IMG/VR virus record: IMGVR_UViG_3300025141_000018
DNA length: 64,000 nucleotides
DNA from: a virus
Taxonomy: Duplodnaviria; Caudoviricetes
Reading direction: 5' to 3' (one strand)
The translations under genes and the position numbers were made by a program. The notes under the pieces were generated by a model. It searched no databases. It was not told the DNA's origin and saw nothing but the letters and a program-made list of their open reading frames with translations. The stretch's first letter is position 1. Each line of letters begins with the position of its first letter. Of this stretch, positions 4,801-25,706 are shown piece by piece.

Positions 4801-4829
4801 ATTATAACAAAAATATAGTAATTAGTCAA
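4801..4829 (-). promoter_or_regulatory. Sigma70-type promoter TTGACT-N17-TATAAT driving the GT operon
   Basis: agtcaa at 4824-4829 and attata at 4801-4806 on the + strand, with a 17-nt spacer, immediately upstream of the ATG at 4797. Confidence 0.7.
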
Positions 4830-7800
4830 CTTCTTTGTTAGGCGGTATGTACCAGGTTAATTCGTCAATTTTTGCTTTTAACTCTTGTATTTTACTAGTT
4901 TGAGCATTAATAGCATTGACCAACAACGGAATTACTTTTTCATATTTAATTGTTAAGTAATCTTCACCTGATTTTGAACTACCATCTTCAGCAATATCAA
5001 ACGGTGCTGGTACTACTACTTCTGGTAATATTTTTTGTACTTCTTGTGCTATTAAACCAACTTGTCGTTTATCAGAATCATATCCAAATAACTTTGCTTC
5101 GTCGTTATTTTTATAATATACGCCTGATATTTCCTTTAATACATCGGCGGCATCTTTACCTTCAACATCTTGTCCCGGACCATCAGGTTCAATTTCTTTT
5201 AATCGTCTATCAGAATAGTATGCTGTAATTTCGCTTGTTGCACGAACTTCTCCGTTTACTGTCAACACTCCACTTGCAAGTGCCATCAAATCAGTATCAG
5301 AAGTATGTCCAATATTAGTACTGTCAATTTTAACATTATCTACCGTTAATGCAGTCAATGTTCCTACTGATGTAATCTGGGTCTGTGCCGCATTTACACT
5401 TAAAGTATTCGTTGATAATGTTAAGCCTGTCCCTGCACTAAGAGCAGTCTTAGACATCGCTAATCCAGATATAGTAGTAGCATTTCCAGAGGAAGTTACA
5501 TCACCGGTTAGGTTTGCATTCGTTACAACAGTTGCCGCATTGCCTACACTTGTTACCCCACCTGTTAGATTTGCGTTTGTTACAACAGTTGCCGCATTAC
5601 CTACACTTGTTACCCCACCTGTTAGATTTGCGTTTGTTACAACAGTTGCCGCATTGCCTACACTTGTTACCCCACCTGTTAAGTTAGCATTAGTTGTGAC
5701 TGTATCTGCATTTCCAGTTAAATCTCCTGTTACATTTCCTTCAAGATGTGCAACGATTGTTCCTTTTACTCCAGAGGCAACCTCTGAGGTTAATGTTGCA
5801 TCTGGTATGAAAATAAGTTTACTAGTAGAATCATCATATCCAAGAAATGCAGTTTTTGCGGCTGATCCATTGTGATACTGCATTGCAAGACCAACATCTT
5901 TATTTGTATCAGCGGCTAACGCACCTCCACCGGAAGCAGTTTGGAGATGAATAATTGGATCGACCACTGTCATTGTTGTACTATCTATTGTGTAATTTGT
6001 TCCTGATACTGTAAAATCGCCAGTTACTGTTAAATCTTGAGATACAGAAACATTTCCGGTTGCATCGATTGCAATAGCATCAGTATCAGAAGCGGAACCT
6101 ATGGTTCCAGCATCCTTTATTACAATATTTCCGCCAAAATATCCATCACATGCTACACTAAGTCCGCCATCTGATTGTAACGCACCATTAGTTGTAGATG
6201 TTGCATTTGTAGTATCATCTGTAAGTATTCTTCCTGTTGCGGTAATAGTTGTTCCACTGAATATTGCTTTAGCGGAACTTATACCACCATCAGTTTGTAT
6301 TGAACCATCTGTACCACTTGTTGCATCTGTTGTGTCATCACTAAGTATTCTGCCAGTTGCAGTAATGGTTGTTCCACCGAATATTGCTTTAGCAGAACTT
6401 ATTCCGCCATCTGTTTGCAATGCACCATCTGTTCCACTTGTTGCATCTGTTGTGCTATCGCTAATTATCCGACCAGTTGCAGTTATTTTACCTGCGGCAA
6501 ATACATCACATGCGGCACTTATACCACCATCTGTTTGCAATGCACCATCAGTTCCGGTTGTTGCATTTGTTGTGCTATCGCTAATTATCCGACCAGTTGC
6601 AGTTATTTTACCTGCGGCAAATACATCACATGCGGCACTTAATCCGCCATCTGTTTGCAATGCACCATCAGTTCCGGTTGTTGCATTTGTTGTATCATTT
6701 GTAAGTATTCGACCAGTTGCAGTTATTTTACCTGCGGCAAATACATCACATGCGGCACTTATACCACCATCAGTTTGTATTGATCCATCTGTTCCAGTTG
6801 TTGCATTTGTTGTGCTATCGCTAATTATTTTGCCAGTGACTGTTACTTGTCCGCCAATATATCCATCACATACTACACTAAGTCCACCGTCAGTTTGTAT
6901 TGATCCATCTGTTGTGTCTGTTGCGTTTGTTGTGCTATCACTAAGTAATCTGCCAGTTGCGGTTATCTTACCTGCGGCAAATACATCACATACTACACTA
7001 AGTCCACCGTCAGTTTGTATTGATCCATCTGTTCCAGTTGTTGCATTTGTTGTGCTATCACTAATTATTCGACTACCACCTACAATACAAGAAGTTGCAG
7101 TAATAAGTCCGGTTTGATCAATACATAATTGCTTAGTACCAGCAGTATAAAATTCTAAATCATCGGAATCTGATGATACCTCAGCACAAATATATGTGTC
7201 CTGATCAATATCAATTAATCCACCGAGGGAGCCCCAAGCAGATCCACTATAACCTTCAAATGAGCTTGTTGTAGTATTGTATCTTACTCCGCCTTGTGTC
7301 GGTGATGCATCTCGTTCAACAGTTGTACCAACCGGTAATACCAATGAATTAGTACCTTCAACAACTACGTTTCCAGTACCGTTTGGATCAAGATTTATAT
7401 TACCATCTGTATCTGTACTTTGTATATCGTTTAAATTAGTAGGATCAAATTGTACATTCGTAGCGGTATCGCCAGCACCTGATTCTGGAACTCCTGTGTT
7501 ACCAGTATAACGTGATCCTTTAACATATATCTTTTTACCACTTAATGCACCCGGTATACTTGTACCAATAAAGTTTAAAACACCTGCATCATAATCAAAA
7601 AACCATTCGTAGCCTGATTCACCACCAAGTAATTGTGTACCGCCTGTTTCTGGATCTGTTTGTCCAGCATCGTCGGCGTATACTTTTACTAAGTAAGTGG
7701 ATCCATACGAAGTATCAATCCAATCTGTTAAACCTGTTTTCCATGATCTTTGTGATGTTGCAGTTGCATCTTCTGTACATTCAACAGTTGCACTTGAACT

Positions 7801-8019
7801 TCCACCATCTGAATATACAGTAACAACACCGGCAGTAGCACTTGGTTGAACACCAGGAATGTCTCCAGATTGTGCCCATATTACTGAGCTATTAATTCTT
7901 GATACGGCAGGAATGGCCTCGTTAGGTCCACCTTTAACAGAAGATATATCTGTTTTCGCGGCTTTAAATCCGAGCTTCTTCCATAAAAAGTCTATCTTTT
8001 GATCACTTGTAATTGCCAT
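4822..8019 (-). CDS. Tail fibre protein with internal repeats and C-terminal intramolecular chaperone (peptidase S74)
   Basis: YYSDRRLK...LKEISGVYY...VGLIAQEVQKILPEVV...IKYEKVIPLLVNAI is the S74 signature. Gly/Thr-rich repeats. Confidence 0.85.
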   Translation of the reverse strand: MAITSDQKIDFLWKKLGFKAAKTDISSVKGGPNEAIPAVSRINSSVIWAQSGDIPGVQPSATAGVVTVYSDGGSSSATVECTEDATATSQRSWKTGLTDWIDTSYGSTYLVKVYADDAGQTDPETGGTQLLGGESGYEWFFDYDAGVLNFIGTSIPGALSGKKIYVKGSRYTGNTGVPESGAGDTATNVQFDPTNLNDIQSTDTDGNINLDPNGTGNVVVEGTNSLVLPVGTTVERDASPTQGGVRYNTTTSSFEGYSGSAWGSLGGLIDIDQDTYICAEVSSDSDDLEFYTAGTKQLCIDQTGLITATSCIVGGSRIISDSTTNATTGTDGSIQTDGGLSVVCDVFAAGKITATGRLLSDSTTNATDTTDGSIQTDGGLSVVCDGYIGGQVTVTGKIISDSTTNATTGTDGSIQTDGGISAACDVFAAGKITATGRILTNDTTNATTGTDGALQTDGGLSAACDVFAAGKITATGRIISDSTTNATTGTDGALQTDGGISAACDVFAAGKITATGRIISDSTTDATSGTDGALQTDGGISSAKAIFGGTTITATGRILSDDTTDATSGTDGSIQTDGGISSAKAIFSGTTITATGRILTDDTTNATSTTNGALQSDGGLSVACDGYFGGNIVIKDAGTIGSASDTDAIAIDATGNVSVSQDLTVTGDFTVSGTNYTIDSTTMTVVDPIIHLQTASGGGALAADTNKDVGLAMQYHNGSAAKTAFLGYDDSTSKLIFIPDATLTSEVASGVKGTIVAHLEGNVTGDLTGNADTVTTNANLTGGVTSVGNAATVVTNANLTGGVTSVGNAATVVTNANLTGGVTSVGNAATVVTNANLTGDVTSSGNATTISGLAMSKTALSAGTGLTLSTNTLSVNAAQTQITSVGTLTALTVDNVKIDSTNIGHTSDTDLMALASGVLTVNGEVRATSEITAYYSDRRLKEIEPDGPGQDVEGKDAADVLKEISGVYYKNNDEAKLFGYDSDKRQVGLIAQEVQKILPEVVVPAPFDIAEDGSSKSGEDYLTIKYEKVIPLLVNAINAQTSKIQELKAKIDELTWYIPPNKEVD
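5465..5700 (-). repeat. 57-nt (19-aa) coding tandem repeat, about 4 copies, VTNANLTGGVTSVGNAATV
   Basis: gttacaacagttgccgcat recurs at 5522, 5579 and 5636. Confidence 0.95.
6120..7075 (-). repeat. 120-nt (40-aa) coding tandem repeat, 8 copies, ATGRIISDSTTNATTGTDGALQTDGGISAACDVFAAGKIT
   Basis: Lines 6481, 6601 and 6721 begin with an identical 40-nt string. Eight units are visible in the translation. Confidence 0.95.
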
Positions 8020-8029
8020 TCATGTTTCC

Positions 8030-11000
8030 TTAACTAAAGCTCAAACTATCTATATAATCACCACTTGCTAATTTAATATTAAAAAACAAGAGATTATTAT
8101 ATGTATTACTTAAATTCGCAGTTCCTAAGGTCATAGTAAATGTTGAGTTTACTGCTGACCCAGTTGTTACTTTATTAGAGTTACCCGAAGCAACTCCATC
8201 ACTTCCATTTCCGCCTGCACCTGTGTTTGATCCTGGCATACCAGCACCACCATATGTAGCCGTACAATCTAACCAGCCACCTAATCCACTTGATGCGTCT
8301 GTTGTCTCGCCCGGTAATGCAATCCAAAATCCACTAATTTTTCCATTTAATAAAATATCAAAACTTGAAACAACCGAACGTTTAAATGCTCCTCTAAAAT
8401 ATTGAGCACCTGATCGTCCTGTGTTCAAATCTGGACCTGCGGGTAAATATCCTGATGATAAATCAGTTGAAAAATGCTTTAATTGTCCCCATCTTGCAAC
8501 GGCTTCATCTGTACCTGCAATAGTTTGTGTACCTGTCCATGCATTACTTGCATAATAATCAGTTGAACTACTATAAGTTGGATTATCACCAGCGGCAGAT
8601 GCAATTACTATACGTTTTGCATCACCCGATCCAGTACCTAAAGTTGTTATAGTAATATCTTCTTCGTCGAATCCGCTAATTGAAGTTCCTTTCAAGTTTA
8701 TCTTTGTTGTAAATGTGCTATATCCACCTTCACCGTTAATATTTGATAAATTTGCTTTAACTGTTCCAACGGCATTAACTGAGCCATTAACACTAAAAGT
8801 AATATCTCCTAATGTATATTTACTTCCGCTTGCTTTACCTGTATCAGCAACCGGATTGCCTCCATTTAAAAATGTACTTGATCCATCAATATTTGCGTAT
8901 GTTTTTGTTTGTGTCGATATGATACTTCCAGATGTACTCTCATCGTTTGATGCATGTTCAATACTAAACGGAGTTGAAGTATCTTGATATGTTTGTCCTA
9001 TCCAATCGTATGCTTTAACAGTACCTAATGTTACTGTGGCACCTGTTGTATAATACGGAATACCACTAATATATGCTAAGGTTCCGGCTCCTGCTTGTGT
9101 TACTGTTGATGCTGATATATCTAAACTTGGTGTTGATGTTACATCATCTTTAACAAATTCAATCTCTGGTGTTGCACCTGTAACAGTATGGCAAATCTGG
9201 TAACTATTAAGACCAACACTAACTGCACTTGCTGTTTTAGAAACTTTTGCTTTAAACACTCTATAAAAATTACTTGGATAAATTTTGCTTGAACCTGATA
9301 CACCTACACCTGTTGCACTAACTGTATTTGCATCAATATCTTCAGTAATACACATTGAACTTGTTAAACCTGAATTATCACTAGCAGTAAAAGTAATTGC
9401 ACCATCTGCGGATCCATTAACCAATGCACAAACTGCACCTGCGGCTGAATTATATGCATAAGAGCTAATTATATCTGAGTCGATTGTTCCGCCAGTATCT
9501 GTTGTTCTATCAACTGCTGAACCTGCCGATAATGTAGCACCGCCAGTATTGTCTGTAAATCCATGTGCTAACTTAGGACTTGTTCCAGTATCTTCACCTG
9601 TAAAACCTATTGTTTTAGCACTTAATCCGGCTGGTGCGGCAGGCGTTGCTAAAATATCCATAGTAAAGTTTTCAGTATCATCAGTAGCATTTAAACTTAA
9701 TGTTGGATTATATGCTAATAAATTACCATTATATGTTCCTGTTCCTACTGATGTATAATCATGTGTAATGTTAGTTCCTACATCACCTGGATTACTACTA
9801 CCGTGGGCCATGCAATCAAGAGCTGAACTATCGCCCCAATTATATTCATAGCATGTAGCATTTTGTGATGTATTAGCGGCACATCCTAACGCATAATTAA
9901 GTCCATCATATCCAGTTACAGCATATCCTCTAACGTTGCTTGCATTATCAATACCTGTTGATTCGTTTTGGAATATTACTGCTACATTAGATCTTGGATC
10001 TGGCTTAATTGTTATTGTACATGCCGATGTTACAAACGGACTGCTTGTGTGTCCGTTATATGCTTGCAAGCATACATCACGTGTTACTGTGGTACCTGAG
10101 GCTTGTTCACCTGTTGTTAAATCAAAAGTATGTGCAACGGCAACATTATAATCGCCTGCTCCACCGCCTCCTGCGGCAACTTCGCATGTTGAACCATCAT
10201 CAAATGTCCACTTCCAACAGTTTCCTGCACCAAAATTACTTGCAGATCCTAGTGTATCAACAGTACCTGTAAAGTTAACAACTAAACCACTTGTTGCTTC
10301 TTCATTATTTCCACTATTAACATCACTTGTAAATGCTGGTGTTTGTGAACTCCAAACACATACACATTTAACTTCGCTAAGTGGAAGTACTGACGGGTTA
10401 GTTGTGCTATGATTATCCATTCTCAAACATACTGAATAACGTGTATCTGCATCTGGTGAATTTGTCCATGTGTGTGCTAATCCTGCACCATCTCGTCCAC
10501 CTGCGGCGGCATCAGTTGCAATACATGCATCGGAACTATCACCCCAAAATATTGTATAATCAGCAGTATTACCATATGAAGTTGTAGCACCTGTTTCTGT
10601 TGATGTATTGCATATGCAAGCGGCTGAAGCACTATCCCAGCCAGCAGTTGTAACATTTGCCGGATTTCCATCATACATTGCCCATTCAATATCCGGAGTT
10701 GGAGTAGCAATTAACATATAATCTGTACAATCTAATGTTATTTCTGAACCATAACCTATACCACTTGTATGCTTTGCAGTTGCACAAACTGTATTACATC
10801 CTACTGCACCCGATCCATATGTTTTTGAAACTGTACATGAACCATCACACGATACACTTGTTAATTTGCAATCCGAAGTTCCGTCACCCCAGTCGATATC
10901 AATACATGATGGATTACCCATCCAGCAAAATGTAAAAGCAATAGCGGTATTAGCACTTGAAATACATTGTCCTGCATCATAATCCGAATCTGTACTCCAA

Positions 11001-12607
11001 GATATATCTCTAACATAAGTATCTCGTCTTACATTTAATATTGTATCGTTTAAAATATGAATTGCGTCTGCTAAACCATCTGTGTTTTCAAGACATACAC
11101 TAGCACCTTCTCGTGTTCCGCTATATCCAGATGTTAATTGTGGTGTTCTGTGGAATACACCTGCATATCCGGCCGGTGTACCAATAGCACTACCAGACCC
11201 TGACGAATCAGTTATTACATTAGCGACACATAAATCAGCAAGTGCCGTTCCAAGTTTTAATTCAAATTTATCAGTTGTTTCGTTCCATGTAATATGTGCA
11301 TTATCATCAGTTCCACGTTCAATTTCAAGTCCTGCATTTTCTGATGGTGTTCCTGTTTCGTCGGCATTTAATGTCATAATTGCATCGCCAATCAGCACAC
11401 AATTTGAACATACCGCAGTTTGCGTTCCTGCTACTGTTAAACTACCACCTATATGAACATCGCATCCTACACCTAAACCACCTGTTACAATAACTGCACC
11501 ACTTGAAGCAGATGTTGAATTTGTTGTATCTGTTACACAAGTTGCACCAGAAACATCTGCGTCACCTGTTACTGATAAACGTGATGCTGAAAACGTTAAG
11601 TTTGAACTATCTTCTACTTCACCATTTGTTCCTGCTAATGCAATTCTTCCTGTTGTTAAATCACATACTTGTAAACTACTTGCTATACCACATGCTAATG
11701 TTGCGGTACCTGTAGTATTAATAGTATCTGCACAAATATCATCAATATATGCATCTTCCCATCTCTTAGTGGTAGCACCTAAATTATATGTATCACTTGC
11801 ATTAGGAATAATATGAGAATGTACATCCGCACCAATTGTTAATTCATCTGTATCTGCATCACCTAAAGTAATATTACCGCTGGCAGTAATATTTGCACCA
11901 ATAATATTACCAGTTGCATTTATATTTCCACCAACACATACATCACATGCTACACCAAGACCACCTTTTACTTGTAATGCTCCTGTGGTAGTACTTGTTG
12001 AATTTGTTACATCACAAAAAATACCAGTACAAGCATCTACATCATCAATAAATCCATCTTCCCATCGTTGTGTAACAGAACCTAAATTATATGTATCACT
12101 TGCATTAGGAATAATATGAGATGTAATATCACCACTAACAGTAATATCATCTGCGGCTGTATCACCTAAAGTAACATCACCGCTAAGTTGTACGCCATCA
12201 GCAAACACTTTATTAAATGCTTGTGTTGAACTACCTAAACAAACAGTACTTTCAAAGGTTAAATCAAAACATGCTCCTGTACCAGTTCCACCTGCGGTTG
12301 CGTTTCCAGTTGTAGTTGTTGGCTTAACATCATAGATGCCAGCACATTTAATAGCGGCAGTTTGGATAATTCCACTACCGTCAACAGTTTGTACACAGAT
12401 TGTTCCTACTTCCGATCCTGATGCAGTGGTTGCGCCAGTATTGTCTACGCAGATAATATCGTTTGCGGTGTATCCTGTTCCTGCGGTATTAATCGAAATA
12501 GCGGTAAGATTGAGTGAAGCAAGTAGATTACCCCTAAGGTACCCGCCTGCCTTTGCTAATTTTTTCTTTTCAAGTTTGTTAATTAACCCGGTATTAATTA
12601 TGCTCAT
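8030..12607 (-). CDS. Large virion appendage/fibre protein with fibre-type N-half and four PKD/Ig-like domains; Cys-rich
   Basis: Fibre repeats (IIPNASDTYNLG..RW; GGLGVACDV) are followed by PKD-type motifs IDIDWGDG, TIFWGDS, WTFDDGS and YNWGDS. About 44 Cys in 1525 aa. Confidence 0.7.
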   Translation of the reverse strand: MSIINTGLINKLEKKKLAKAGGYLRGNLLASLNLTAISINTAGTGYTANDIICVDNTGATTASGSEVGTICVQTVDGSGIIQTAAIKCAGIYDVKPTTTTGNATAGGTGTGACFDLTFESTVCLGSSTQAFNKVFADGVQLSGDVTLGDTAADDITVSGDITSHIIPNASDTYNLGSVTQRWEDGFIDDVDACTGIFCDVTNSTSTTTGALQVKGGLGVACDVCVGGNINATGNIIGANITASGNITLGDADTDELTIGADVHSHIIPNASDTYNLGATTKRWEDAYIDDICADTINTTGTATLACGIASSLQVCDLTTGRIALAGTNGEVEDSSNLTFSASRLSVTGDADVSGATCVTDTTNSTSASSGAVIVTGGLGVGCDVHIGGSLTVAGTQTAVCSNCVLIGDAIMTLNADETGTPSENAGLEIERGTDDNAHITWNETTDKFELKLGTALADLCVANVITDSSGSGSAIGTPAGYAGVFHRTPQLTSGYSGTREGASVCLENTDGLADAIHILNDTILNVRRDTYVRDISWSTDSDYDAGQCISSANTAIAFTFCWMGNPSCIDIDWGDGTSDCKLTSVSCDGSCTVSKTYGSGAVGCNTVCATAKHTSGIGYGSEITLDCTDYMLIATPTPDIEWAMYDGNPANVTTAGWDSASAACICNTSTETGATTSYGNTADYTIFWGDSSDACIATDAAAGGRDGAGLAHTWTNSPDADTRYSVCLRMDNHSTTNPSVLPLSEVKCVCVWSSQTPAFTSDVNSGNNEEATSGLVVNFTGTVDTLGSASNFGAGNCWKWTFDDGSTCEVAAGGGGAGDYNVAVAHTFDLTTGEQASGTTVTRDVCLQAYNGHTSSPFVTSACTITIKPDPRSNVAVIFQNESTGIDNASNVRGYAVTGYDGLNYALGCAANTSQNATCYEYNWGDSSALDCMAHGSSNPGDVGTNITHDYTSVGTGTYNGNLLAYNPTLSLNATDDTENFTMDILATPAAPAGLSAKTIGFTGEDTGTSPKLAHGFTDNTGGATLSAGSAVDRTTDTGGTIDSDIISSYAYNSAAGAVCALVNGSADGAITFTASDNSGLTSSMCITEDIDANTVSATGVGVSGSSKIYPSNFYRVFKAKVSKTASAVSVGLNSYQICHTVTGATPEIEFVKDDVTSTPSLDISASTVTQAGAGTLAYISGIPYYTTGATVTLGTVKAYDWIGQTYQDTSTPFSIEHASNDESTSGSIISTQTKTYANIDGSSTFLNGGNPVADTGKASGSKYTLGDITFSVNGSVNAVGTVKANLSNINGEGGYSTFTTKINLKGTSISGFDEEDITITTLGTGSGDAKRIVIASAAGDNPTYSSSTDYYASNAWTGTQTIAGTDEAVARWGQLKHFSTDLSSGYLPAGPDLNTGRSGAQYFRGAFKRSVVSSFDILLNGKISGFWIALPGETTDASSGLGGWLDCTATYGGAGMPGSNTGAGGNGSDGVASGNSNKVTTGSAVNSTFTMTLGTANLSNTYNNLLFFNIKLASGDYIDSLSFS

Positions 12608-12634
12608 TTAACTTCCAATACACCTTTGTAGTAA

Positions 12635-12642
12635 TATTTATT
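12635..12642 (-). promoter_or_regulatory. Late promoter (AATAAATA)
   Basis: TATTTATT on the + strand, 28 nt upstream of the ATG at 12607. Confidence 0.6.
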
Positions 12643-12644
12643 TG

Positions 12645-13070
12645 TCATATTTTAGTCCATGTTGTACATACTAACTGATCATCTACGTTATATGTCAAAC
12701 ATTGAGTAAAAAGTTTTGTTGATCCATTTGTGTCATAGTAATCAACTATGTTTAAATTATCGTTGCTATCATAACATAAACATTGCATGTTTCCGGTTAC
12801 ATAACAAACTTTCTCCATTAAGTCACTGGCATTATATACCATACAAGATACATTAGTTTCATTTAATGCCGAATCTAATCTATTTGCTACCCGTACCCAA
12901 TTATCATCATAATATGTTTCTAAAGAACATATTGTTGAGTTATATCTCAAAAGTCCATCTACTGGTGTTCCATCACGTTGTGCAGTTGTTCCAACCGAAA
13001 CTTTAATGGAACCAGTTCCATCGAATCTTGGGTTTTCAGACATTAGTGATGTTGGTACTCTTGTTGTCAT
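12645..13070 (-). CDS. Small virion structural protein, Cys-rich
   Basis: GTTAQRDGTPVDGLLRYN module shared with the fibre genes. 7 Cys in 141 aa. Confidence 0.6.
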   Translation of the reverse strand: MTTRVPTSLMSENPRFDGTGSIKVSVGTTAQRDGTPVDGLLRYNSTICSLETYYDDNWVRVANRLDSALNETNVSCMVYNASDLMEKVCYVTGNMQCLCYDSNDNLNIVDYYDTNGSTKLFTQCLTYNVDDQLVCTTWTKI

Positions 13071-13080
13071 AAAAAAATCC

Positions 13081-13347: not shown

Positions 13348-13370
13348 AAAATTCCCTTGTTATATAATAT

Positions 13371-13729: not shown

Positions 13730-13737
13730 TATTTATC
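13730..13737 (-). promoter_or_regulatory. Late promoter (GATAAATA)
   Basis: TATTTATC on the + strand, 30 nt upstream of the ATG at 13700. Confidence 0.6.
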
Positions 13738-17762: not shown

Positions 17763-19119
17763 TGAGCTCCTCCATTAATAACTTATAAAATTTCCCATTT
17801 GTATGGTTAAAAACTCTTATATATTCTGATTGCTCATCAAGTGTAAAATGTCCGTTATCGTTGTGCATATGTAAATCACCAATAGTAGTTGACGAAGCAA
17901 ATACGTCTTTCCAACGTTTTCCTGCTTCTCCTAAACAATGAGTATCATCAACACTAGGAAGAATATGATTTGGAAATGCTTGCATCTGGGCACAAGTATA
18001 ATGACTTGCTGAATCAAATGTTGCATAGGAAACTGTTTCTAATACATCACTAACATTTGCACCTGAATTTAATACAACCGAAGTATTGTTGTTTGCTACA
18101 AAATCATTTGATGCACCTTCTATTAATTTAATACCATTTAAAAATACATCTATGTGTCCTGTTGTATAGCATTGTGCAGGCGTAAACGTTGTTTGACTAG
18201 CAGTTGCCGTAAATGCTTCTGTTACAATAGTGCTTCTTTCAGCATTACCATTTGTAATACATAATTGTTTCGGGTTTGATCCTGTATTTGTTGCTATTGT
18301 AATACCTGTTCCTGCTACTACTTCTAATGTATCATTATTAGTAGCAACTAAACTGCTTTGTCCTGATACTTCTAATGTTTTATATGATACACCTGAACTT
18401 CCAACAGTAACAGTACCACTACCATTATCAGTTAATTCAAATCCACAATTAACATCAAATTTAAAAGTATCTACATTTGCTACTATGGTATTTGAAACTG
18501 GATCGTTTATTTCACATACATTAATAGCAACTCCTGCATCACACCATGCAAAAGCACTACCTGTCCAAATAAGATTTTGATTACTACTAGGACTTGCAGG
18601 AATATCACATAATGATTCAATACCAACACCTAGTGTTCCGTTTGTAGCACACCCTGATGTACCTATATTAAGTACACCTGTTGAATCAGATGATAAAACA
18701 GTATCGCATACTGTAAGAGTACCATCCATACTAACATTTCGCAATGTAGCAATATCTTTATTAGCATCAACAACAAGAGCATTATTACCGGCTACTGTAC
18801 CATCTGTAATTCCATTAATTTTTGCAATATCGGTTTCGGAAACACTTTCTGCACCCATACATAATATATCTGTACAAACTGCTGTAGAAGCACAAATTGT
18901 TCCAACATCAATATTGGCTGTTTTTACACCAACTGTATAAACACATTTCCATTGATTTGTATTACCATCGCTCCCGACTCCGTCTAAACCAATACAATAT
19001 GAGTCGTGGTCAATAGGTACAATGTTCTGATTAATTTGAGTAAGATCAACACCCGATTGAGTTAGTTGCCTCTTATTGTTATAATTAATATTAGGATTAA
19101 AATATGAAAAAGATCCCAC
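17755..19119 (-). CDS. Virion fibre-associated structural protein; Cys-rich
   Basis: Fibre motifs (HILPSVDDTHCLG..KRWKDVF; TIGDLHM.N..G.FTLDE). About 15 Cys in 454 aa. Confidence 0.65.
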   Translation of the reverse strand: MGSFSYFNPNINYNNKRQLTQSGVDLTQINQNIVPIDHDSYCIGLDGVGSDGNTNQWKCVYTVGVKTANIDVGTICASTAVCTDILCMGAESVSETDIAKINGITDGTVAGNNALVVDANKDIATLRNVSMDGTLTVCDTVLSSDSTGVLNIGTSGCATNGTLGVGIESLCDIPASPSSNQNLIWTGSAFAWCDAGVAINVCEINDPVSNTIVANVDTFKFDVNCGFELTDNGSGTVTVGSSGVSYKTLEVSGQSSLVATNNDTLEVVAGTGITIATNTGSNPKQLCITNGNAERSTIVTEAFTATASQTTFTPAQCYTTGHIDVFLNGIKLIEGASNDFVANNNTSVVLNSGANVSDVLETVSYATFDSASHYTCAQMQAFPNHILPSVDDTHCLGEAGKRWKDVFASSTTIGDLHMHNDNGHFTLDEQSEYIRVFNHTNGKFYKLLMEELNE

Positions 19120-19122
19120 TTA

Positions 19123-19473
19123 CTATCCTCCTAACGCTATTGCAAATGCAATAGCACTTTCATCTATTTGTGATTGCAACGAAGTCGTTGACGGTTTAAA
19201 ACTTGACGAAACTGTATCATATGTTAAGTAATATCCTGCCGCCGGAGTTACACTTGAATCATATGAAACCACATTTTTCCAAGTAGCATTACCATAATGT
19301 TCTAATTGATTTGTATCACTATTAAATCTTAAAGATCCATCAGTTGCAACACCTGTTTGCGAACGCCCCGAAGTTGTACCAACAGGTAATATAATAGCAC
19401 CATTTTGATCAACAGTTAAAACTTGACTGCTACTACTGATTTTGTTTAATTGATGATTTAAATTTATTGCCAT
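19123..19473 (-). CDS. Small virion structural protein
   Basis: LPVGTTSGR...DGSLRFNSDT..LEHY module and C-terminal AIAFAIALGG. Confidence 0.6.
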   Translation of the reverse strand: MAINLNHQLNKISSSSQVLTVDQNGAIILPVGTTSGRSQTGVATDGSLRFNSDTNQLEHYGNATWKNVVSYDSSVTPAAGYYLTYDTVSSSFKPSTTSLQSQIDESAIAFAIALGG

Positions 19474-19483
19474 TTTTTATTTC

Positions 19484-21076
19484 CTAACTTGTAATCATAC
19501 TATGATACGGTTCTATATAAGGCATTCTTAAATATCTATTTGGTGCACCACATATACTATCGTCATTATTATAATCATCATCTAATCCTGTTGAATATAA
19601 TCTATTTGCTATACCTTCATCAATGAGCCATTGATTAGCATCATCTTGTGTCCAAGTAGGATGAAGTTGTAACATACAAGCAATTACTCCAGTTACTTGC
19701 GGACTTGCCATACTTGTACCTGATAATGCAGTAACTTTATAACTAGAATTTCTTGGATCATTGTAGCCACTTATATAAGGACTCATAATATTTGATCCTG
19801 GTGCCCATATATGTAATCTTGCGCCTTTAGTTGACGAATATCTAGTTTGCTCATACCATGTTCCACCTGACGATAGATATGATCCTTCAACATTACCAAC
19901 AAGTCCTATATTTGCTGTTGATGTTGTTGGTGTACCACCTCTATGATAATACTTAATACTATTATAATATTTGTCAAAATACCAATTATTATAATCAATA
20001 TGCCCTGAACCTACAATTACATACTTGTTATTGCCAGCGGCATTATACATTATTATTCCATCATCTATGCAATCTTGTACATCTGCATCAATTGATGAAA
20101 CAAAATTACCATGAGTACTACTTACACCTATTCCTCTATTTTCTAATTCTGCTGGACTTGGCCAATCACTTCCAGTATAACTACCAGCACCCCAATCACC
20201 ATGTGATCCAGTATATTCATAAGTCCAATCTGTTCCTCTATAAGTTCCATAAACAGGTTGCAAAGCATTAGTATAATATGACCAACTATTATTACAAACA
20301 GTAGGTCTACCTGCATTAGGACCTGATTTATTATTATGCCATCCTCTAATTAATTCAAAACAAGTATATGAACTAATTGCATACGTATTTGATAATGTAG
20401 CCATTGCATATATGTCTGCACCTCTTGCCCAGCCGTGTGTATTACCTGCGGCTGTTCCTGCTACATGACTTCCGTGTCCGTTTTGATCGCTGTAAAAATT
20501 AGCATTTTGAGAACCAGAAATTCCTGATTCCGTATACCAATCTATTTCTTGTATTCGAGATCCACCAGTACCATCAGGATTAACTGTGTACTCTGGATGC
20601 CCGGCAGTTATACCTGTATCAATTATAACTACATCAACACCTGTGCCATCTAATGCATAATCATGATCAGCGGTTATACTTGTACTATTAACACCTCCAA
20701 ATGCATCAGTATTATTAGTATAAGAACAACTACGTAATCCCCAATTTTTTATATCAGAACCTCCTGAAGTTCTATGAAATTGTGCATCTTCATATTTTCC
20801 AAGAGTCGTAACAGGCATATTTAATATTTCCTGTTTTAATTGTACATCTAGTACTCGCGAATCATTTCTTAATTCTGCGGCTTCTAAATGTGATAATGCA
20901 TACTCTGTATTTCGTTTACTTCCCGGTCGTTTATCAACCCAATCAATAGGTTTATCCGGAATACTGGCTAAACTTGTATCAGAGTTTTTGAGCCCCGATG
21001 TGTCTTTTGTCATTTGATCAAAGAACTCTGACGGGTCACAATCTTTCTTCAGAGTAACTACATATTCTTGTTCCAT
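19484..21076 (-). CDS. Subtilisin-like serine protease (S8) with N-terminal prodomain
   Basis: Complete catalytic set: VVIIDTG (Asp), HGSHVAG (His), AAGN (oxyanion Asn), GTSMASP (Ser). No signal peptide evident. Confidence 0.92.
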   Translation of the reverse strand: MEQEYVVTLKKDCDPSEFFDQMTKDTSGLKNSDTSLASIPDKPIDWVDKRPGSKRNTEYALSHLEAAELRNDSRVLDVQLKQEILNMPVTTLGKYEDAQFHRTSGGSDIKNWGLRSCSYTNNTDAFGGVNSTSITADHDYALDGTGVDVVIIDTGITAGHPEYTVNPDGTGGSRIQEIDWYTESGISGSQNANFYSDQNGHGSHVAGTAAGNTHGWARGADIYAMATLSNTYAISSYTCFELIRGWHNNKSGPNAGRPTVCNNSWSYYTNALQPVYGTYRGTDWTYEYTGSHGDWGAGSYTGSDWPSPAELENRGIGVSSTHGNFVSSIDADVQDCIDDGIIMYNAAGNNKYVIVGSGHIDYNNWYFDKYYNSIKYYHRGGTPTTSTANIGLVGNVEGSYLSSGGTWYEQTRYSSTKGARLHIWAPGSNIMSPYISGYNDPRNSSYKVTALSGTSMASPQVTGVIACMLQLHPTWTQDDANQWLIDEGIANRLYSTGLDDDYNNDDSICGAPNRYLRMPYIEPYHSMITS

Positions 21077-21081
21077 AATAC

Positions 21082-21089
21082 TATTTATT
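21082..21089 (-). promoter_or_regulatory. Late promoter (AATAAATA)
   Basis: TATTTATT on the + strand just upstream of the subtilase ATG at 21076. Confidence 0.5.
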
Positions 21090-21100
21090 GCAAAATATTA

Positions 21101-22918
21101 TTATGTAATTTCTATAGTCCAGGATCCGTCTTTAAAGGGCATGTTGGCGTATCGGTTATGTCCGCCATGTAGGCTGTCTGTAACAGTATAATCTTGGCCG
21201 CCACCGAGCCAGGCTGCTGTGGGGCCTGCGCCATACCTATCTGCGGGAGTATTTGTAGTACCTTGGTGAATTGCTCCGGATTTATGACATTCTGATCGTA
21301 CAAAATCACGGACATTTTTTTGATTCCAATGAGGATTGGCTTCAAGTAAACAAGCAACCATACCACATACTTGTGGGCTTGCCATACTTGTACCACTTAA
21401 TGATTTCCAATGGTAACTAGAATCTCTAGGGTCGGTCCAGGAACTATTTGCGGCATTTACAGGTCCTGCAATATTAGTTCCGGGGGCCCATACATCTATT
21501 CTAGGTCCACTATTTGAATAATCTGCTTTTTTCTCTGTTGTTGTTCCAGGTTTATTAGTATCAGCGATTGCTCCAACACAAACAGGCATCATTCCATTAT
21601 CATTCCAATGCGAACCTGGGGAGCCACCTTGCATATGTTTTATTGAGCCTCTACTAACAGTTCCGTATTCGGTTGCCCAGTCTCTACCTAAATCTGACAT
21701 ATTTAATTTTCTCGGACAACCATCAGTATCGTTATATGCAACATCTATTTTGTGATATTCATTACCTGCGGCGGCTACAAAAATTACTCCAACATCCATA
21801 CATTGTTCCATATCTGCTTTTATATCTGATCTAACTCGCGGATGCACCCAATAATTAGATGGATCATCTGTATCTTCGTATCCTGTTTCACCAAAAAATT
21901 CTTTACGTTGGTTTCCTGATGTATATCCTGCTTCAGCAAATCTGTAAGCCTGACCAGAATCATAAGGATAATCACCATATCTCCATGCATGTATTGTCAT
22001 ATTCCAATAATGCTCTAAAATAATCCAACTTTGATTTACTACTGTAGGTCGTTTATATCCAGTTGATGCCTGGGCTGTTTTTTGTGTATGAAATGCTTCT
22101 ATCATATCAAAACTATATGCATGAGAAACATATGCGGCATCTTGAATTTTTTGTGACCATATACCTGCTTCTGTTGCCCATCCACAAGTATTACCTACTG
22201 CTATTCCAGCAACATGAGATCCATGTCCGTAACTATCATTATGATAACCATCATAACTATAACCACCAGGCATATTAATACCTAATGCATTCCACCAATG
22301 ATATGTGCTATCGTATCTTGAACCACCTGTGCCATCAGGATTAATTGCAAACTCGGGATGATCTCCTATTATACCTGTGTCTTGAATTATAACATCTACT
22401 CCTTTACCTGTCAAGTTATAACCATACTTTCCAGTAAGTTCTGTAGAGTTACTATTCCATCCTCCAGCAGTTGTAGTCATAGAACGTAAACCCCAATTTA
22501 CATCCCATGCTTGCGATGGACTCCTATCAAAATTCATATCAGTTGGTGCCCACCCTACTGCTCCTTGGGTACCTCTATAATGACATAATCCTATATTTTG
22601 ATGGGGATCGTTTTCAAATGGAATTTGCACATCGTCGACTCTAGGATCTTTACGTAACTCTCGCACTTCTTCTAAAGACATGCTATAATGTGTATTACAA
22701 TTACTTTTTTCTCGTCTATTTACAGTATCTATAGTTCTTGTTGGTATTTGTCCTGTATCGGAAAGGGAGGCTGAATCACGAATCATTTTATCATGAAAAT
22801 CTGTTGCATCTGCATCTTTTTTTAATGTCACGATATACTCCTCTTGAGCAGTCATATCAAGACCGTTTGCAATTTCTTCTTCTTCTAGTGCTTTTAATTC
22901 ATCTAATATGTCGCTCAT
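21101..22918 (-). CDS. Second S8 subtilase, paralogue of 19484..21076
   Basis: IIQDTG, HGSHVAG, AAGN and GTSMASP. The prodomain motif EYIVTLKKD matches EYVVTLKKD in the paralogue. Confidence 0.92.
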   Translation of the reverse strand: MSDILDELKALEEEEIANGLDMTAQEEYIVTLKKDADATDFHDKMIRDSASLSDTGQIPTRTIDTVNRREKSNCNTHYSMSLEEVRELRKDPRVDDVQIPFENDPHQNIGLCHYRGTQGAVGWAPTDMNFDRSPSQAWDVNWGLRSMTTTAGGWNSNSTELTGKYGYNLTGKGVDVIIQDTGIIGDHPEFAINPDGTGGSRYDSTYHWWNALGINMPGGYSYDGYHNDSYGHGSHVAGIAVGNTCGWATEAGIWSQKIQDAAYVSHAYSFDMIEAFHTQKTAQASTGYKRPTVVNQSWIILEHYWNMTIHAWRYGDYPYDSGQAYRFAEAGYTSGNQRKEFFGETGYEDTDDPSNYWVHPRVRSDIKADMEQCMDVGVIFVAAAGNEYHKIDVAYNDTDGCPRKLNMSDLGRDWATEYGTVSRGSIKHMQGGSPGSHWNDNGMMPVCVGAIADTNKPGTTTEKKADYSNSGPRIDVWAPGTNIAGPVNAANSSWTDPRDSSYHWKSLSGTSMASPQVCGMVACLLEANPHWNQKNVRDFVRSECHKSGAIHQGTTNTPADRYGAGPTAAWLGGGQDYTVTDSLHGGHNRYANMPFKDGSWTIEIT

Positions 22919-23892
22919 TATGTATTCACCACCGTAGCTCTAGTATCAAATCTAAGCCAATTAGTGCCATCATAAAATACTGGAGTAGGTTGAGCATTAC
23001 TAGATCCGTCTGTTGCATCACATGCATATGCTATTGCTCCTGCACTTGGTGCGCCTAGAGCATTTAAAGCGGTAACTGTACATACTGCTAAACCAATAGG
23101 CGAACACGCTCTTGTTTCACCAGCGGCGTTAAGACAAATATAATTTCCTGCATTTATATTAAATGTGCCTGATGCAGTTGTAATCAAACAACATGAAATA
23201 CATAAAGTATTAGCAACTAATGTTCCACCAATATGTGCATTACATGCAATGCCTACACCACCAGATACCATAAATGCACCTGTTGTTGAACTTGTTGATT
23301 GGGTTGTATTTGTTATAGTAAGTGTACCATCAGTACAATAACAAACATCATGTCCTGAATATTTGCAAAGATAGCCTGTTCCTGAACCACCTGTAATACC
23401 TGTTAAGTTACTTCCATCACCAATGAAACAATCAGCAGTAACATTTCCACCAACTTTTATATCGCATACTACACTAATTCCGCCATCGGTTTGTATAGAC
23501 CCATCAGTTGTAGATGTTGCATTTGTAGTATTTTCAGTATATATTTTACTTTCTGATATAATATGTCCTTCAATATACGCATCGCATTTAACACCTAAGC
23601 CTCCTGAGCAGGCTATTAAAGAACCGGTTACTCCTGATGTTGCATTAGTATTTTGAGTTGCGGTATAAACTGTGGCTGATTGAATTGTATTACAAGTAAG
23701 AGTACCGGAGACTGTCATGTCTCCTGCTACATTAATGTCACCACCAATCCAAGCATCACATGCAATACCGGCTCCACCTAGCATTACTAAGGCACCTGTG
23801 CTAGTACTTGTTGAATTTGTTGTTGTCTTAAGACATAATTTATCTGCGGTTAAATTATAATCACCGCAAATACAAGAAGTGATGTCAGTCAT
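22918..23892 (-). CDS. Cys-rich fibre-repeat virion protein
   Basis: Four TTNSTS.TTGAL..GG.G.ACD-type repeats. About 20 Cys in 324 aa. Confidence 0.7.
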   Translation of the reverse strand: MTDITSCICGDYNLTADKLCLKTTTNSTSTSTGALVMLGGAGIACDAWIGGDINVAGDMTVSGTLTCNTIQSATVYTATQNTNATSGVTGSLIACSGGLGVKCDAYIEGHIISESKIYTENTTNATSTTDGSIQTDGGISVVCDIKVGGNVTADCFIGDGSNLTGITGGSGTGYLCKYSGHDVCYCTDGTLTITNTTQSTSSTTGAFMVSGGVGIACNAHIGGTLVANTLCISCCLITTASGTFNINAGNYICLNAAGETRACSPIGLAVCTVTALNALGAPSAGAIAYACDATDGSSNAQPTPVFYDGTNWLRFDTRATVVNT

Positions 23893-23903
23893 TAGTGATT
23901 ATC

Positions 23904-24665
23904 CTAGTGTAAATCTGTCCATGCACCGTTAGCATATCCTCTAAATTTGCAAGTATCGGATTTATAATACATTTGGCCTTCGGCACCTGCTGGATCACTT
24001 GTGGCAGTATGAAGTTGAACAACATTGCTCATTGTTAATTTACCAGCAATGTATGCATCACAAGCAACTCCAATTCCTCCATCTGTTTGTATTGAGCCAG
24101 TTGTACCACTAGTTGAATTAGTAGTACTGTCAACAGTAATGGCACCAGCAATGTATGCATCACAAGTAACTCCAAGTCCGCCATCTGTTTGTATTGAGCC
24201 AGTTGTACCATTAGTTGAATTAGTAGTACTATCGACAGTGATGGCACCACCAATATATACATCACAAGCAACTCCAAGTCCACCAGCATTAGTAATAGCA
24301 CCTGTGGTTGTGCTAGTTGAATTCGTTGTATCTGTTGCACTAATAATACCTGCGGCTATTGTTTTAACAAAAACACAATTCCATTTTTGTGGCGCAGAAC
24401 CTAAATTATAGGTTTCATCTGTATCGGGTATAATATGTGATATTACATCAGCAGTAAAACAAACAGAATCAGTATTAGCATCACCAATAACTGTATTACC
24501 AGTGGCATATAAATTACCTCCAACACAAATATCTTTAGTAACACCAACTCCACCTGCAACAACTAACGCACCGGTTGTTGTACTTGTTGAATTTGTGTCA
24601 CTTATTATTGTTACACATGTTGAATCAATACTATATTCGCCTGCTATTTTTTCTGTATGTTTCAT
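23904..24665 (-). CDS. Fibre-repeat virion protein
   Basis: Four STTNSTSTTTG...GG.GVACD repeats. The C-terminal module is shared with 24674..25612. Confidence 0.7.
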   Translation of the reverse strand: MKHTEKIAGEYSIDSTCVTIISDTNSTSTTTGALVVAGGVGVTKDICVGGNLYATGNTVIGDANTDSVCFTADVISHIIPDTDETYNLGSAPQKWNCVFVKTIAAGIISATDTTNSTSTTTGAITNAGGLGVACDVYIGGAITVDSTTNSTNGTTGSIQTDGGLGVTCDAYIAGAITVDSTTNSTSGTTGSIQTDGGIGVACDAYIAGKLTMSNVVQLHTATSDPAGAEGQMYYKSDTCKFRGYANGAWTDLH

Positions 24666-24673
24666 TTATATCT

Positions 24674-25612
24674 CTAATGTAAATCTGTCCATGCTCCATT
24701 AGCGTATCCTCTGAACTTGCAAGTATCTGTTTTATAATACATCATTCCTTCAGTTCCTGCAGGATCGCTAGTTGCACCATGTAATTTAATTGTTCCGCCC
24801 ATTGTTAAACTTGTTAATGTACCAACACTTGTAATACCTGCTTGTGCGGCATCTACACTTAAAGAATGGGCAACATTTTCTCCGGTAGTTGCTCCTGAAG
24901 ATGTTAGTCCGGTTCCAGCAGTTAATGTTCCAACATAGTTACCGGAAGTATCAGTACCAAGTGTAACCGAATTTGCTTGAATTGTTGCTGTTCCTGTTAC
25001 ATTTCCTGATCCATCAAACCCACTTGAAGTCCATACAACATCTCCTGTCATACCAATAGTTCTAGCCGTTGTAAGTTTATCAGCAGTTCCTGATGAACCA
25101 CCAGTTGAGCCAGCAGTTGTAGCACAACAAACTGAAAAATCACATGCTAATACTTTTTTAAATGCATTATCAGTTGCATCAACAACTACTAGATAATCAG
25201 TGTTACTGTCAATTGGATTATACATTTGATCGCATATAACACCTGTGCTAACAGTCATACAACCACTAGAAGCAAGAGTTATATCTCCTGAAACTGCTTT
25301 TGCGGTATAGCAACTTCCTTGCCCTACTAATACATTTCCTGCAGATGCAGTTGCAGTAACAACATCTGTTAAACAATTAAGGGCTAAACCAGTTGTGTGT
25401 GCTACTGATTTCCAAGTACATGAAGATGGATCAGAATCAAAATATTCTACTGCATATGTTTCATTATTATATCTTAACGAACCACCTTTTAGTGTACTAC
25501 CTGAAGCACAACGAGAAGCAGTATTACCAGCAGGCAACACCATATTACTACATGTGCCTACTTCTAAATTGCTCGGTGCTGAGCTCGGATATGGTACTAT
25601 TACTGAAGTCAT
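24674..25612 (-). CDS. Fibre-related virion protein (true start 25612, MTSVIVP)
   Basis: The listed start at 25807 lies inside gp23 and crosses its terminator. The ATG at 25612 follows a late promoter. About 11 Cys in 312 aa. Confidence 0.7.
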   Translation of the reverse strand: MTSVIVPYPSSAPSNLEVGTCSNMVLPAGNTASRCASGSTLKGGSLRYNNETYAVEYFDSDPSSCTWKSVAHTTGLALNCLTDVVTATASAGNVLVGQGSCYTAKAVSGDITLASSGCMTVSTGVICDQMYNPIDSNTDYLVVVDATDNAFKKVLACDFSVCCATTAGSTGGSSGTADKLTTARTIGMTGDVVWTSSGFDGSGNVTGTATIQANSVTLGTDTSGNYVGTLTAGTGLTSSGATTGENVAHSLSVDAAQAGITSVGTLTSLTMGGTIKLHGATSDPAGTEGMMYYKTDTCKFRGYANGAWTDLH

Positions 25613-25696: not shown

Positions 25697-25706
25697 GTAG
25701 TAAACC

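What the first reader, a model, noticed from the sequence alone, without database searches (positions are those of the whole stretch)
4822..25612. Systematic cysteine substitution across the whole fibre/appendage cluster (candidate undescribed virion-surface system)
Seen (hand counts, +/- a few): about 46/1341 Cys in 13737..17762, 44/1525 in 8030..12607, 20/324 in 22918..23892, 15/454 in 17755..19119, 11/312 in 24674..25612, 8/253 in 23904..24665 and 7/141 in 12645..13070. By contrast there are 2/389 in capsid, 2/571 in portal, 2/1115 in gp6 and none seen in tape measure. Cys occupies positions where sister repeats in this window carry other residues: ACDVF vs SAKAIF, VACDVY vs VTKDIC, TCDITE vs TDDLTE, VTCVN vs VSQVN. 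It even enters the S74 chaperone (SDRKIKCD, FVTCL). Most are single, CxC or CC rather than CxxC. Known: cytoplasmically assembled phage fibres are normally Cys-poor. Inference: selection for a dense array of thiols on the virion surface. Possible roles are S-glycosylation by the neighbouring GTs, inter-chain disulfide armouring after lysis, or metal/redox binding.
Basis: partly seen in the sequence, partly recalled or inferred. Interest (0 to 1): 0.88.

Follow-up and report, generated by a model that had tools for sequence, protein, structure and literature searches.

The report
Cysteine-packed fibres of a marine phage
A widespread marine jumbo phage lineage has replaced many ordinary surface residues of its tail-fibre proteins with cysteine (3-6%, against about 0.2% in related fibres); the pattern is real and under selection, and most likely gives sulfur cross-links or attachment points, an unusual form of something already known from a few other phages.

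Summary
The counts are exact. Seven fibre ORFs hold 151 Cys in 4350 residues (3.47%), against 32/7993 (0.40%) in the window's other structural proteins (odds ratio 8.9, p 6e-40). The window is a T4-superfamily marine jumbo myophage.

The enrichment is lineage-specific:
- Homologous fibre ORFs in 37 related contigs have 0.15% Cys.
- The 145 best representative clusters worldwide have a median of 0.34%.
- In the universal fibre repeat GGxG[IV]x-X-[DN], X is Cys in 14/15 window copies, against 4/1077 elsewhere (mostly K or G).

Only contigs with a capsid protein at least 93% identical share the trait. Their fibres have diverged to 39-80% identity and still carry 3-5% Cys.

Cys is 95% conserved between close relatives, with synonymous TGT/TGC changes. 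Positions turn over at greater distance, while density is kept.

Cys sits at K-like positions, shows no CxxC or CxC excess, and is often single per repeat.

No thiol oxidase was found. The radical SAM enzymes next door also occur in Cys-poor relatives.

The mechanism is unproven. Post-release disulfide cross-linking, as in phage Milano, is the best guess (about 0.4). Enzymatic thiol modification and metal binding remain open.

This scan has noted Cys-rich virion modules on other phage DNA before.

The parts
24674..25612 (-). First fibre gene after the capsid gene: 312 aa, 11 Cys (3.5%). The ORF is open up to 25807, but the start at 25612 fits the gene called in L002.
   Evidence: PHROG tail fibre/minor tail
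23904..24665 (-). Short fibre: 253 aa, 8 Cys (3.2%). It has three GGxGVxCD repeats and one ancestral K copy. It is predicted to form a homotrimer.
   Evidence: ESMFold2 trimer score 0.91 against 0.00 for the best of 3 controls; the mark was reached by 21/30 solved same-chain pairs and 0/23 single chains; the runs agree in at least 91% of contacts; pLDDT at least 92.
22918..23892 (-). Most Cys-rich fibre protein: 324 aa, 20 Cys (6.2%).
19484..22918 (-). Two paralogous S8 subtilases (605 and 530 aa) with intact Asp/His/Ser motifs. They lie inside the fibre cluster but are not Cys-enriched (1.3-1.5%).
17755..19119 (-). Fibre or appendage protein: 454 aa, 15 Cys (3.3%). All 15 are conserved in L002.
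13737..17762 (-). Long fibre with a C-terminal Peptidase_S74 chaperone: 1341 aa, 46 Cys (3.4%). Cys sits in the repeated VTxVN...LxTxDITE units and at two places in the S74 domain.
12645..13070 (-). Small Cys-rich protein: 141 aa, 7 Cys (5.0%). All 7 are conserved in L119 at 80% identity.
8030..12607 (-). Long fibre: 1525 aa, 44 Cys (2.9%). 43 of them lie in residues 1-1140 (shaft and WGDG-type modules). The C-terminal part (phrog_8578) has one.
4822..8019 (-). S74-chaperone fibre: 1065 aa with only 10 Cys, but 6 of them are the single Cys of six GG[LI]S[VA][AV]CD repeats. Two sister repeats keep K (SAKAIF).
25707..26876 (-). Major capsid protein (gp23-like): 2 Cys in 389 aa. Used as the marker that delimits the Cys-rich lineage.

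Best explanation
In one sub-lineage of marine T4-superfamily jumbo phages (capsid protein at least 93% identical), selection has replaced outward-facing polar or small residues (K, G, S, T, D, N) of the trimeric fibre shafts with cysteine. This gives a dense array of thiols on seven or eight fibre and appendage proteins, while head, portal and baseplate stay Cys-poor. Shown: the enrichment, its restriction to the lineage, its conservation, its K-like sequence context, and (as a prediction only) trimer formation. Inferred: the fibres fold in the reducing cytoplasm as free thiols. After lysis they oxidise spontaneously in seawater into disulfides between chains, between fibres, or to small Cys-rich partners such as 12645-13070. 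This toughens the fibre apparatus covalently without any phage-encoded oxidase, as documented for the whole virion of phage Milano. Because density is preserved over deeper divergence and exact positions are not, the cross-links would be numerous and partly redundant (keratin-like) and not a fixed disulfide architecture.
For: Enrichment: 3.47% against 0.40%, p 6e-40. Homologous fibres in 37 related loci hold 69/46316 Cys, or 0.15%. 115 homologues have a median of 0.2%, and the 145 best clusters out of 1.84 billion proteins have a median of 0.34%, none at 3% or more. At the repeat position, Cys is present in 14/15 window copies against 4/1077 elsewhere. The trait is present in L002 and L114/115 (MCP 99%; MCP identity measured for L002 only) and in L118/L119 (MCP 93%, fibres 39-80% identical, still 3-5.4% Cys). 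It is absent from 80 loci with MCP at 72-77% identity. Cys is 94.8% conserved against 80% overall, with 18% synonymous codon changes. The hydrophobic-neighbour profile of Cys clusters with K, R and Q and not with V, L and M. The trimer prediction scored 0.91 against 0.00 for the best control (21/30 solved same-chain pairs and 0/23 single chains reach the mark; contact agreement at least 91%; pLDDT at least 92). Precedents in which phage structural Cys proved to be disulfides: Milano, with 2.4% Cys in structural proteins and DTT-sensitive robustness (PMC10491603), and Pam3 fibre-baseplate disulfides (PMC9942802).
Against: No coordinates were available, so no Cys-Cys proximity could be tested. 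Several repeat arrays carry exactly one Cys per roughly 40-residue repeat per chain (4822-8019, 23904-24665). That gives three symmetry-related thiols per layer, which cannot all pair within one fibre. Sequence separations of 1 to 12 residues between Cys, which cover the inter-chain contact offsets of 5-10 residues in the predicted trimer, are no more frequent than chance. At 44-51% identity, the positional conservation of Cys is only average (0.48 against 0.48 overall), unlike classical structural disulfides. Two Cys lie in the S74 chaperone, which is cleaved off. The oxygen status of the habitat is unknown.
Confidence: 0.4

Rival explanations
1. The thiols are acceptor sites for enzymatic modification in the cytoplasm: S-linked glycosylation, or thioether cross-links made by the tailoring enzymes that flank the fibre genes. 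What is selected is site density, as with mucin-type glycosylation sites.
For: Density is kept while positions turn over. Cys sits at exposed, K-like positions next to S/T-rich tracts. Glycosyltransferase-like genes (2501-3115, 3563-4471) lie immediately after the fibre genes on the same strand. An island with twitch-domain radical SAM enzymes (NF033640, 316 and 289 bits) and a sulfotransferase starts about 7-12 kb beyond the window (lead from earlier notes). The GT-like genes have no homologue in the sampled Cys-poor relatives.
Against: The GT is GT62/Mnn9-like and not a SunS-type S-glycosyltransferase. N_Twi_rSAM genes are also present in G002-G005, whose large structural proteins have 0-0.9% Cys, so their presence does not track the trait. 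There is no regular Cx3D/E ladder or other maturase-type motif. No lanthionine or sactionine machinery was recognised.
Confidence: 0.2
2. Symmetry-related Cys of the three chains form metal-thiolate sites along the fibre axis. This would be a thiolate analogue of the His-x-His iron sites of T4 gp37.
For: There is one Cys per repeat per chain in a predicted homotrimer. Asp is co-enriched (7.6% against 4.3%), and Cys-Asp dipeptides are three times more frequent than expected (38 of 161 Cys). An earlier, unchecked note reports a phage-borne SUF Fe-S assembly operon elsewhere in the genome. The Ferrojan Horse literature covers metal in marine phage fibres.
Against: The replaced residues are K, G, S or Q, and the neighbour profile is that of exposed residues. 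That does not fit an axial core position. CxC and CxxC are not enriched and there are only 2 HxH. Positional turnover is high for ligand residues.
Confidence: 0.1
3. The Cys stay as free surface thiols with a direct role, such as thiol-disulfide exchange or adhesion to a host surface component, or sacrificial protection against oxidants.
For: The positions are exposed-type. A neighbouring Asp should raise the thiol pKa and slow oxidation (inference). The receptor-binding C-terminal part of 8030-12607 is almost Cys-free, so the trait belongs to the shafts.
Against: I know of no precedent in phages. Free thiols would be short-lived in oxic seawater. There is no direct evidence.
Confidence: 0.1
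4. It is a non-adaptive compositional quirk: drift, hitch-hiking with recombining fibre modules, or a mutational bias.
For: Residues opposite the window's Cys in relatives mirror the background composition. Positions turn over.
Against: The 20-fold excess is confined to one functional class on the same strand and with the same base skew as Cys-poor head genes. Cys is among the most conserved residues between close relatives, with synonymous changes. Density is maintained at 39-50% identity. K to C needs three base changes yet recurs at one repeat position 14 times.
Confidence: 0.05

Closest known systems
Agrobacterium phages Milano, 7-7-1 and OLIVR4: disulfide-networked virions (PMC10491603)
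   Same: Structural proteins have an unusually high Cys content (2.4% in Milano). The Cys are conserved in close relatives. There is no dedicated oxidase. The trait is specific to a lineage.
   Different: In Milano the Cys are in capsid, neck, collar and sheath, and were seen as disulfides by cryo-EM. Here head, portal and baseplate are Cys-poor (0-0.5%) and only fibres and appendages are enriched, to higher levels (3-6%). Positions turn over, and no structure is available.
Cyanophage Pam3 tail fibre gp24 disulfide-linked to baseplate wedge gp22/gp23 (PMC9942802)
   Same: An aquatic myophage with Cys in fibre proteins. The disulfides are DTT-sensitive and form without a known oxidase.
   Different: Pam3 uses one Cys per fibre chain, docking onto Cys-rich wedge loops. 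Here the wedge proteins are Cys-poor (gp6-like 2/1115, gp7-like 16/3592) and the fibres carry dozens of Cys along the shaft.
T4 gp37 long tail fibre tip with His-x-His iron sites (established knowledge; Ferrojan Horse literature)
   Same: A repeated ligand-type residue in a trimeric beta-structured fibre. The marine context is relevant.
   Different: The ligand here would be thiolate. There is no CxC excess, the positions look exposed, and no metal evidence exists.
Convergent Cys enrichment in gut phage major capsid proteins (bioRxiv 10.64898/2026.07.03.736451)
   Same: Lineage-wise, apparently convergent Cys enrichment of virion proteins.
   Different: That study concerns capsid proteins, with 83% of Cys buried, in the gut habitat. 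Here it is fibres, exposed-type positions, and the ocean.
SCIFF, ranthipeptide and sactipeptide thioether maturation by SPASM/twitch radical SAM enzymes; sublancin-type S-glycosylation (established knowledge)
   Same: Cys-rich substrates, with radical SAM enzymes or glycosyltransferases encoded nearby.
   Different: There is no leader peptide or regular Cys motif. The radical SAM family here (N_Twi_rSAM) also occurs in Cys-poor relatives. The GT is not SunS-like.

Membership tests
Milano-type disulfide-armoured virion | Elevated Cys in structural proteins generally (capsid, neck, sheath) | tested here: not met
   Capsid 2/389, portal 2/571, head proteins 0, gp6-like 2/1115. Only the fibres are enriched.
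Milano-type disulfide-armoured virion | Cys conserved among related phages | tested here: met
   55/58 conserved against L002. Conservation is only average at 44-51% identity.
Milano-type disulfide-armoured virion | Cys spatially paired as disulfides; stability sensitive to DTT | not testable with these tools
   No coordinates are returned. The AF2 monomer model failed (pLDDT 29).
Pam3-type fibre-to-wedge disulfide docking | Cys-rich loops on the baseplate wedge proteins | tested here: not met
   gp25-like 0, gp6-like 0.18%, gp7-like 0.45% Cys.
Virus-encoded cytoplasmic disulfide pathway (Erv1/ALR-type oxidase; NCLDV; earlier scan note e1-3276225) | A sulfhydryl oxidase or thioredoxin-fold CxxC protein encoded with the virion genes | tested here: not met
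   No such Pfam hit among the window ORFs or the 20 island ORFs. The only CxxC-bearing ORFs are fibres, a baseplate protein and the Rad50 zinc hook. The rest of the genome could not be reached.
T4 gp37-type metal-binding fibre | Regular two-residue ligand motif (HxH, or by analogy CxC) in the trimeric shaft | tested here: not met
   HxH occurs twice. CxC is seen 8 times against 5.5 expected (p 0.17), and CC 4 times against 5.4 expected.
Radical SAM thioether (SCIFF, ranthi- or sactipeptide) substrates | Regular Cys motif plus a SPASM/twitch maturase that co-occurs with the substrate | tested here: not met
   Spacing is random. Twitch radical SAM enzymes lie nearby, but they are also present in Cys-poor relatives G002-G005.
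S-glycosylated proteins (SunS/ThuS type) | A GT2 SunS-like S-glycosyltransferase | tested here: not met
   2501-3115 matches Anp1/Mnn9 (GT62). 3563-4471 gives only a weak GT9 match.
Peptidase_S74 intramolecular-chaperone tail fibres | C-terminal PF13884 domain above the gathering score | tested here: met
   4822-8019 scores 42.4 bits and 13737-17762 scores 38.7 bits, against a cut-off of 22. There is a PDB match to 6f45.
T4-superfamily jumbo myophage | gp20-type portal, gp23-type capsid protein, gp21 protease, gp25 and gp6 baseplate proteins | tested here: met
   The portal is 50-54% identical to those of PA5oct and Phosso. PHROG and Pfam hits support the rest.

The most novel reading that the evidence does not exclude
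The periodic Cys array is a purpose-built set of acceptor sites. The fibres would be modified in the cytoplasm, by S-linked glycans or radical-SAM thioether staples, using enzymes of the tailoring island of about 60 kb that adjoins the fibre genes. That would be the first enzymatically S-modified or 'vulcanised' phage fibre.
Probability: 0.15. Interest if true: 0.85.

Novelty: new variant of a known kind. Interest (0 to 1): 0.55.

Why it matters
Tail fibres decide host range and limit how long a virion stays infectious in the sea. Here a globally distributed marine jumbo phage (found in 17 studies) has rewritten a universal fibre repeat from Lys/Gly to Cys and keeps 3-6% Cys while the fibres otherwise diverge quickly.

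If the thiols form disulfides, this is a cheap, oxidase-free way of hardening only the exposed appendages. That bears on virion decay rates and on engineering robust phages. If they are modified or bind metal, it would add a new chemistry to phage surfaces and touch the debate on trace metals carried by marine viruses.

The lineage contrast is a clean natural experiment for finding the cause: capsid identity of at least 93% goes with the trait, and 77% or less goes without it.

Tried and rejected
1. Assembly or sequencing artefact: rejected. The same sequence occurs in 17 studies, and conserved Cys codons differ synonymously between relatives.

2. Codon reassignment of TGT/TGC: rejected. The homologous positions hold K, G, S, D, T and others, with no single residue. 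Head genes use the same codons sparingly, and the window has no tRNA.

3. Base-composition effect: rejected. Cys-poor head genes lie on the same strand with the same skew.

4. Radical SAM co-occurrence: NF033640 enzymes are present in Cys-poor relatives, so they give no specific support.

5. Thiol oxidase or thioredoxin-like gene: none in the window or in the first ~17 kb beyond the gp7-like gene (the last ~3 kb of the window and the following ~13.5 kb). The earlier notes mention none.

6. AF2 monomer model of 22918-23892: unusable, with pLDDT 29, so no fold search was run.

7. Solved structures for the repeat: none by sequence or by profile.

8. Search of IMG/VR with the Cys-rich alignment: no relatives found.

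9. The Cys-rich ORFs next to capsid genes in L036, L038, L041, L043, L049 and L070 are enzymes or spurious frames, not fibres.

10. The window's own whole genome is not held. I reached only about 30 kb beyond the window by walking contigs.

Full report
**What the window is.** The portal protein (31083-32798, minus strand) is 50-54% identical to the portals of jumbo T4-superfamily myophages such as PA5oct, Phosso and Atu_ph07. PHROG and Pfam searches identify a gp23-type capsid protein, a gp21-type protease, gp25-, gp6- and gp5-like baseplate proteins, and a run of tail-fibre genes on the minus strand from 25612 down to 4822. GC content is about 35%. The same DNA is held by marine or seawater metagenome runs of 17 studies. 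No whole genome is held for the window.

**The observation.**
- The seven flagged ORFs hold 151 Cys in 4350 residues (3.47%). Fourteen other structural ORFs hold 32 in 7993 (0.40%). The odds ratio is 8.9 and p is 5.8e-40.
- Not every gene of the cluster is enriched. The two S8 subtilases have 1.3-1.5% Cys, 19123-19473 has none, and 4822-8019 has 0.94%.
- Six of the ten Cys of 4822-8019 are nevertheless the single Cys of six GG[LI]S[VA][AV]CD repeats. Two sister repeats keep K.
- Some small enzymes in the window reach about 3%.
- In two related phage records, ORFs of 150 aa or more have a median of 0.7-1.3% Cys and a 90th percentile of about 2.4%. Their large structural proteins have 0-0.9%.

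**Is it more than composition?** Yes.
- The Cys-poor head genes lie on the same strand and have the same base skew as the fibre genes.
- Of 120 database homologues of 22918-23892, only the five closest (99, 88, 35, 35 and 42% identity) have 3.5-6.5% Cys. The median over all 120 listed is 0.2%.
- An exhaustive search of 1.84 billion cluster representatives gave 145 further best hits with a median of 0.34% Cys, none at 3% or more.
- In the widespread fibre repeat GGxG[IV]x-X-[DN]xxx[GA]G, position X is K (451), G (335), Q, E, R or S in 1077 copies from those hits, and Cys in only 4. Three of those four are in one probable clade member. In the window X is Cys in 14 of 15 copies.
- 80 IMG/VR loci with a capsid protein 72-77% identical carry no Cys-rich fibre gene.
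- 78 ORFs in 37 of those loci are homologous to the window's fibres. Together they hold 69 Cys in 46316 residues (0.15%). Opposite the window's Cys they carry Cys in 0.3% of aligned cells.

**Who shares it.** Contigs L002, L114 and L115 (MCP 99% identical, measured for L002) have the same gene order and the same Cys levels. L118 and L119 have a capsid protein 93% identical, but their fibres are only 39-80% identical. Those fibres still hold 3.0-5.4% Cys. The trait therefore marks a sub-lineage that arose between 77% and 93% capsid identity, and it has been kept while the fibres diverged fast.

**Selection.** Against L002, 55 of 58 fibre Cys are conserved (94.8%, second only to Arg; overall identity 80%), and 18% of the conserved Cys codons differ synonymously. 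Against L119, positional conservation of Cys is only average: 0.48 against 0.48 overall at 44-51% identity, and 0.82 against 0.79 at 78-80% identity. Gains and losses occur on both sides, mostly exchanging with K, S, T, D, N, G and A, while density stays constant. Cys is thus protected in the short term, but over longer times the density is preserved and the exact sites are not.

**Where the Cys sit.**
- Cys-to-Cys separations of 1 to 12 residues (adjacent Cys up to Cx11C) are as frequent as in shuffled sequences, and there are only two HxH motifs.
- The residues flanking Cys at +/-1 are hydrophobic more often than those at +/-2. This is the profile of K, R, Q and T in these proteins and the opposite of L, M, V and F. 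It suggests the outward face of amphipathic strands.
- Asp follows Cys three times more often than expected (38 of 161), and Asp is itself enriched (7.6% against 4.3% in homologues).
- 23904-24665 is predicted to form an intertwined homotrimer. The score was 0.91, and the best of 3 controls scored 0.00. The mark was reached by 21 of 30 solved same-chain pairs and 0 of 23 single chains. The runs agree in at least 91% of contacts, and pLDDT is at least 92.
- Inter-chain contacts in that model are offset by 5-10 residues. The top-ranked contact list shows no Cys-Cys pair.
- Arrays with one Cys per repeat per chain therefore present three symmetry-related thiols per layer.
- No solved structure matches the repeat, and an AF2 monomer model failed. 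The geometry could not be tested.

**Accessory genes.** No thiol oxidase or thioredoxin-like protein was found in the window or in the further ORFs I reached by walking public contigs. Earlier first-reader notes on the same genome report a large tailoring island with many radical SAM enzymes just beyond the window. I confirmed its start:
- two paralogues match NF033640 (N-terminal twitch radical SAM) at 316 and 289 bits against a cut-off of 170;
- a third is a conventional radical SAM enzyme;
- a sulfotransferase lies nearby.

NF033640 genes are also present in four of five related records. Of these, the two read in full (G002, G004) have Cys-poor structural proteins. Their presence therefore does not track the trait. 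The glycosyltransferase after the fibre genes (2501-3115) is GT62/Mnn9-like.

**Interpretation.** The known cases of Cys-rich phage structural proteins that have been solved turned out to be disulfide networks:
- Milano has 2.4% Cys in its structural proteins and DTT-sensitive robustness (PMC10491603).
- Pam3 has fibre-to-wedge disulfides (PMC9942802).

This makes post-release oxidative cross-linking the most probable reading (about 0.4). The single-Cys repeats, the exposed-type context, the random spacing and the positional turnover fit a redundant, density-dependent use of thiols better than a fixed disulfide architecture. They keep three alternatives alive: enzymatic modification (0.2), axial metal sites (0.1) and functional free thiols (0.1). 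Neutral drift is unlikely (0.05).

This scan has already noted Cys-rich virion modules on other phage DNA. The case is therefore a new variant of a known kind. It is distinctive for being fibre-only, for rewriting a universal repeat, and for the clean lineage contrast.

Noticed in passing
window 19484-22918 (-): Two paralogous subtilases (530 and 605 aa) with intact D/H/S motifs and an N-terminal propeptide-like region sit in the middle of the fibre cluster. Homologues are in L080, L118 and L119. They may be virion-borne proteases acting on a proteinaceous host surface layer.
   Followed up: partly
window 57956-64000 (+), continuing in L089 6439-17217: The gp7-like baseplate protein that runs off the window is 3592 aa long (P0121) and has only 0.45% Cys.
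   Followed up: partly
L090 8509-12620 (about 11.6-15.7 kb beyond the window end): Three tandem radical SAM genes. Two belong to NCBIfam NF033640 (N-terminal twitch domain). The family recurs in related jumbo phage records G002-G005, and its substrate is unknown.
   Followed up: partly
window 2501-3115 (-): A 204-aa glycosyltransferase-like protein matches fungal Anp1/Mnn9 (GT62) mannosyltransferases, which is an unusual family for a phage. It lies directly after the fibre genes on the same strand and has no homologue in the sampled relatives.
   Followed up: partly
window 24674-25612 and 23904-24665 against L002, L114, L118 and L119: Several K/C exchanges between close relatives need three base changes each, for example a column reading K in the window and C in four relatives. 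This suggests gene conversion between repeat units and not stepwise mutation.
   Followed up: no
window 4822-8019 (-), protein residues about 786-842: Three exact tandem copies of a 19-residue unit (TNANLTGGVTSVGNAATVV) lie in the fibre shaft.
   Followed up: no
window 51025-52623 (-) and 48606-49940 (+): A C-type lectin/Lcl_C-domain protein and a MORN-repeat protein lie among the baseplate genes.
   Followed up: no
window fibre ORFs overall: Asp is co-enriched with Cys (7.6% against 4.3% in homologues) and Gly is depleted (10.1% against 13.1%). The Cys-Asp dipeptide is three times more frequent than expected.
   Followed up: partly
window 24674-25807 (-): The longest ORF overlaps the 3' end of the capsid gene by about 100 bases. 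The start at 25612 matches the gene called in L002.
   Followed up: yes
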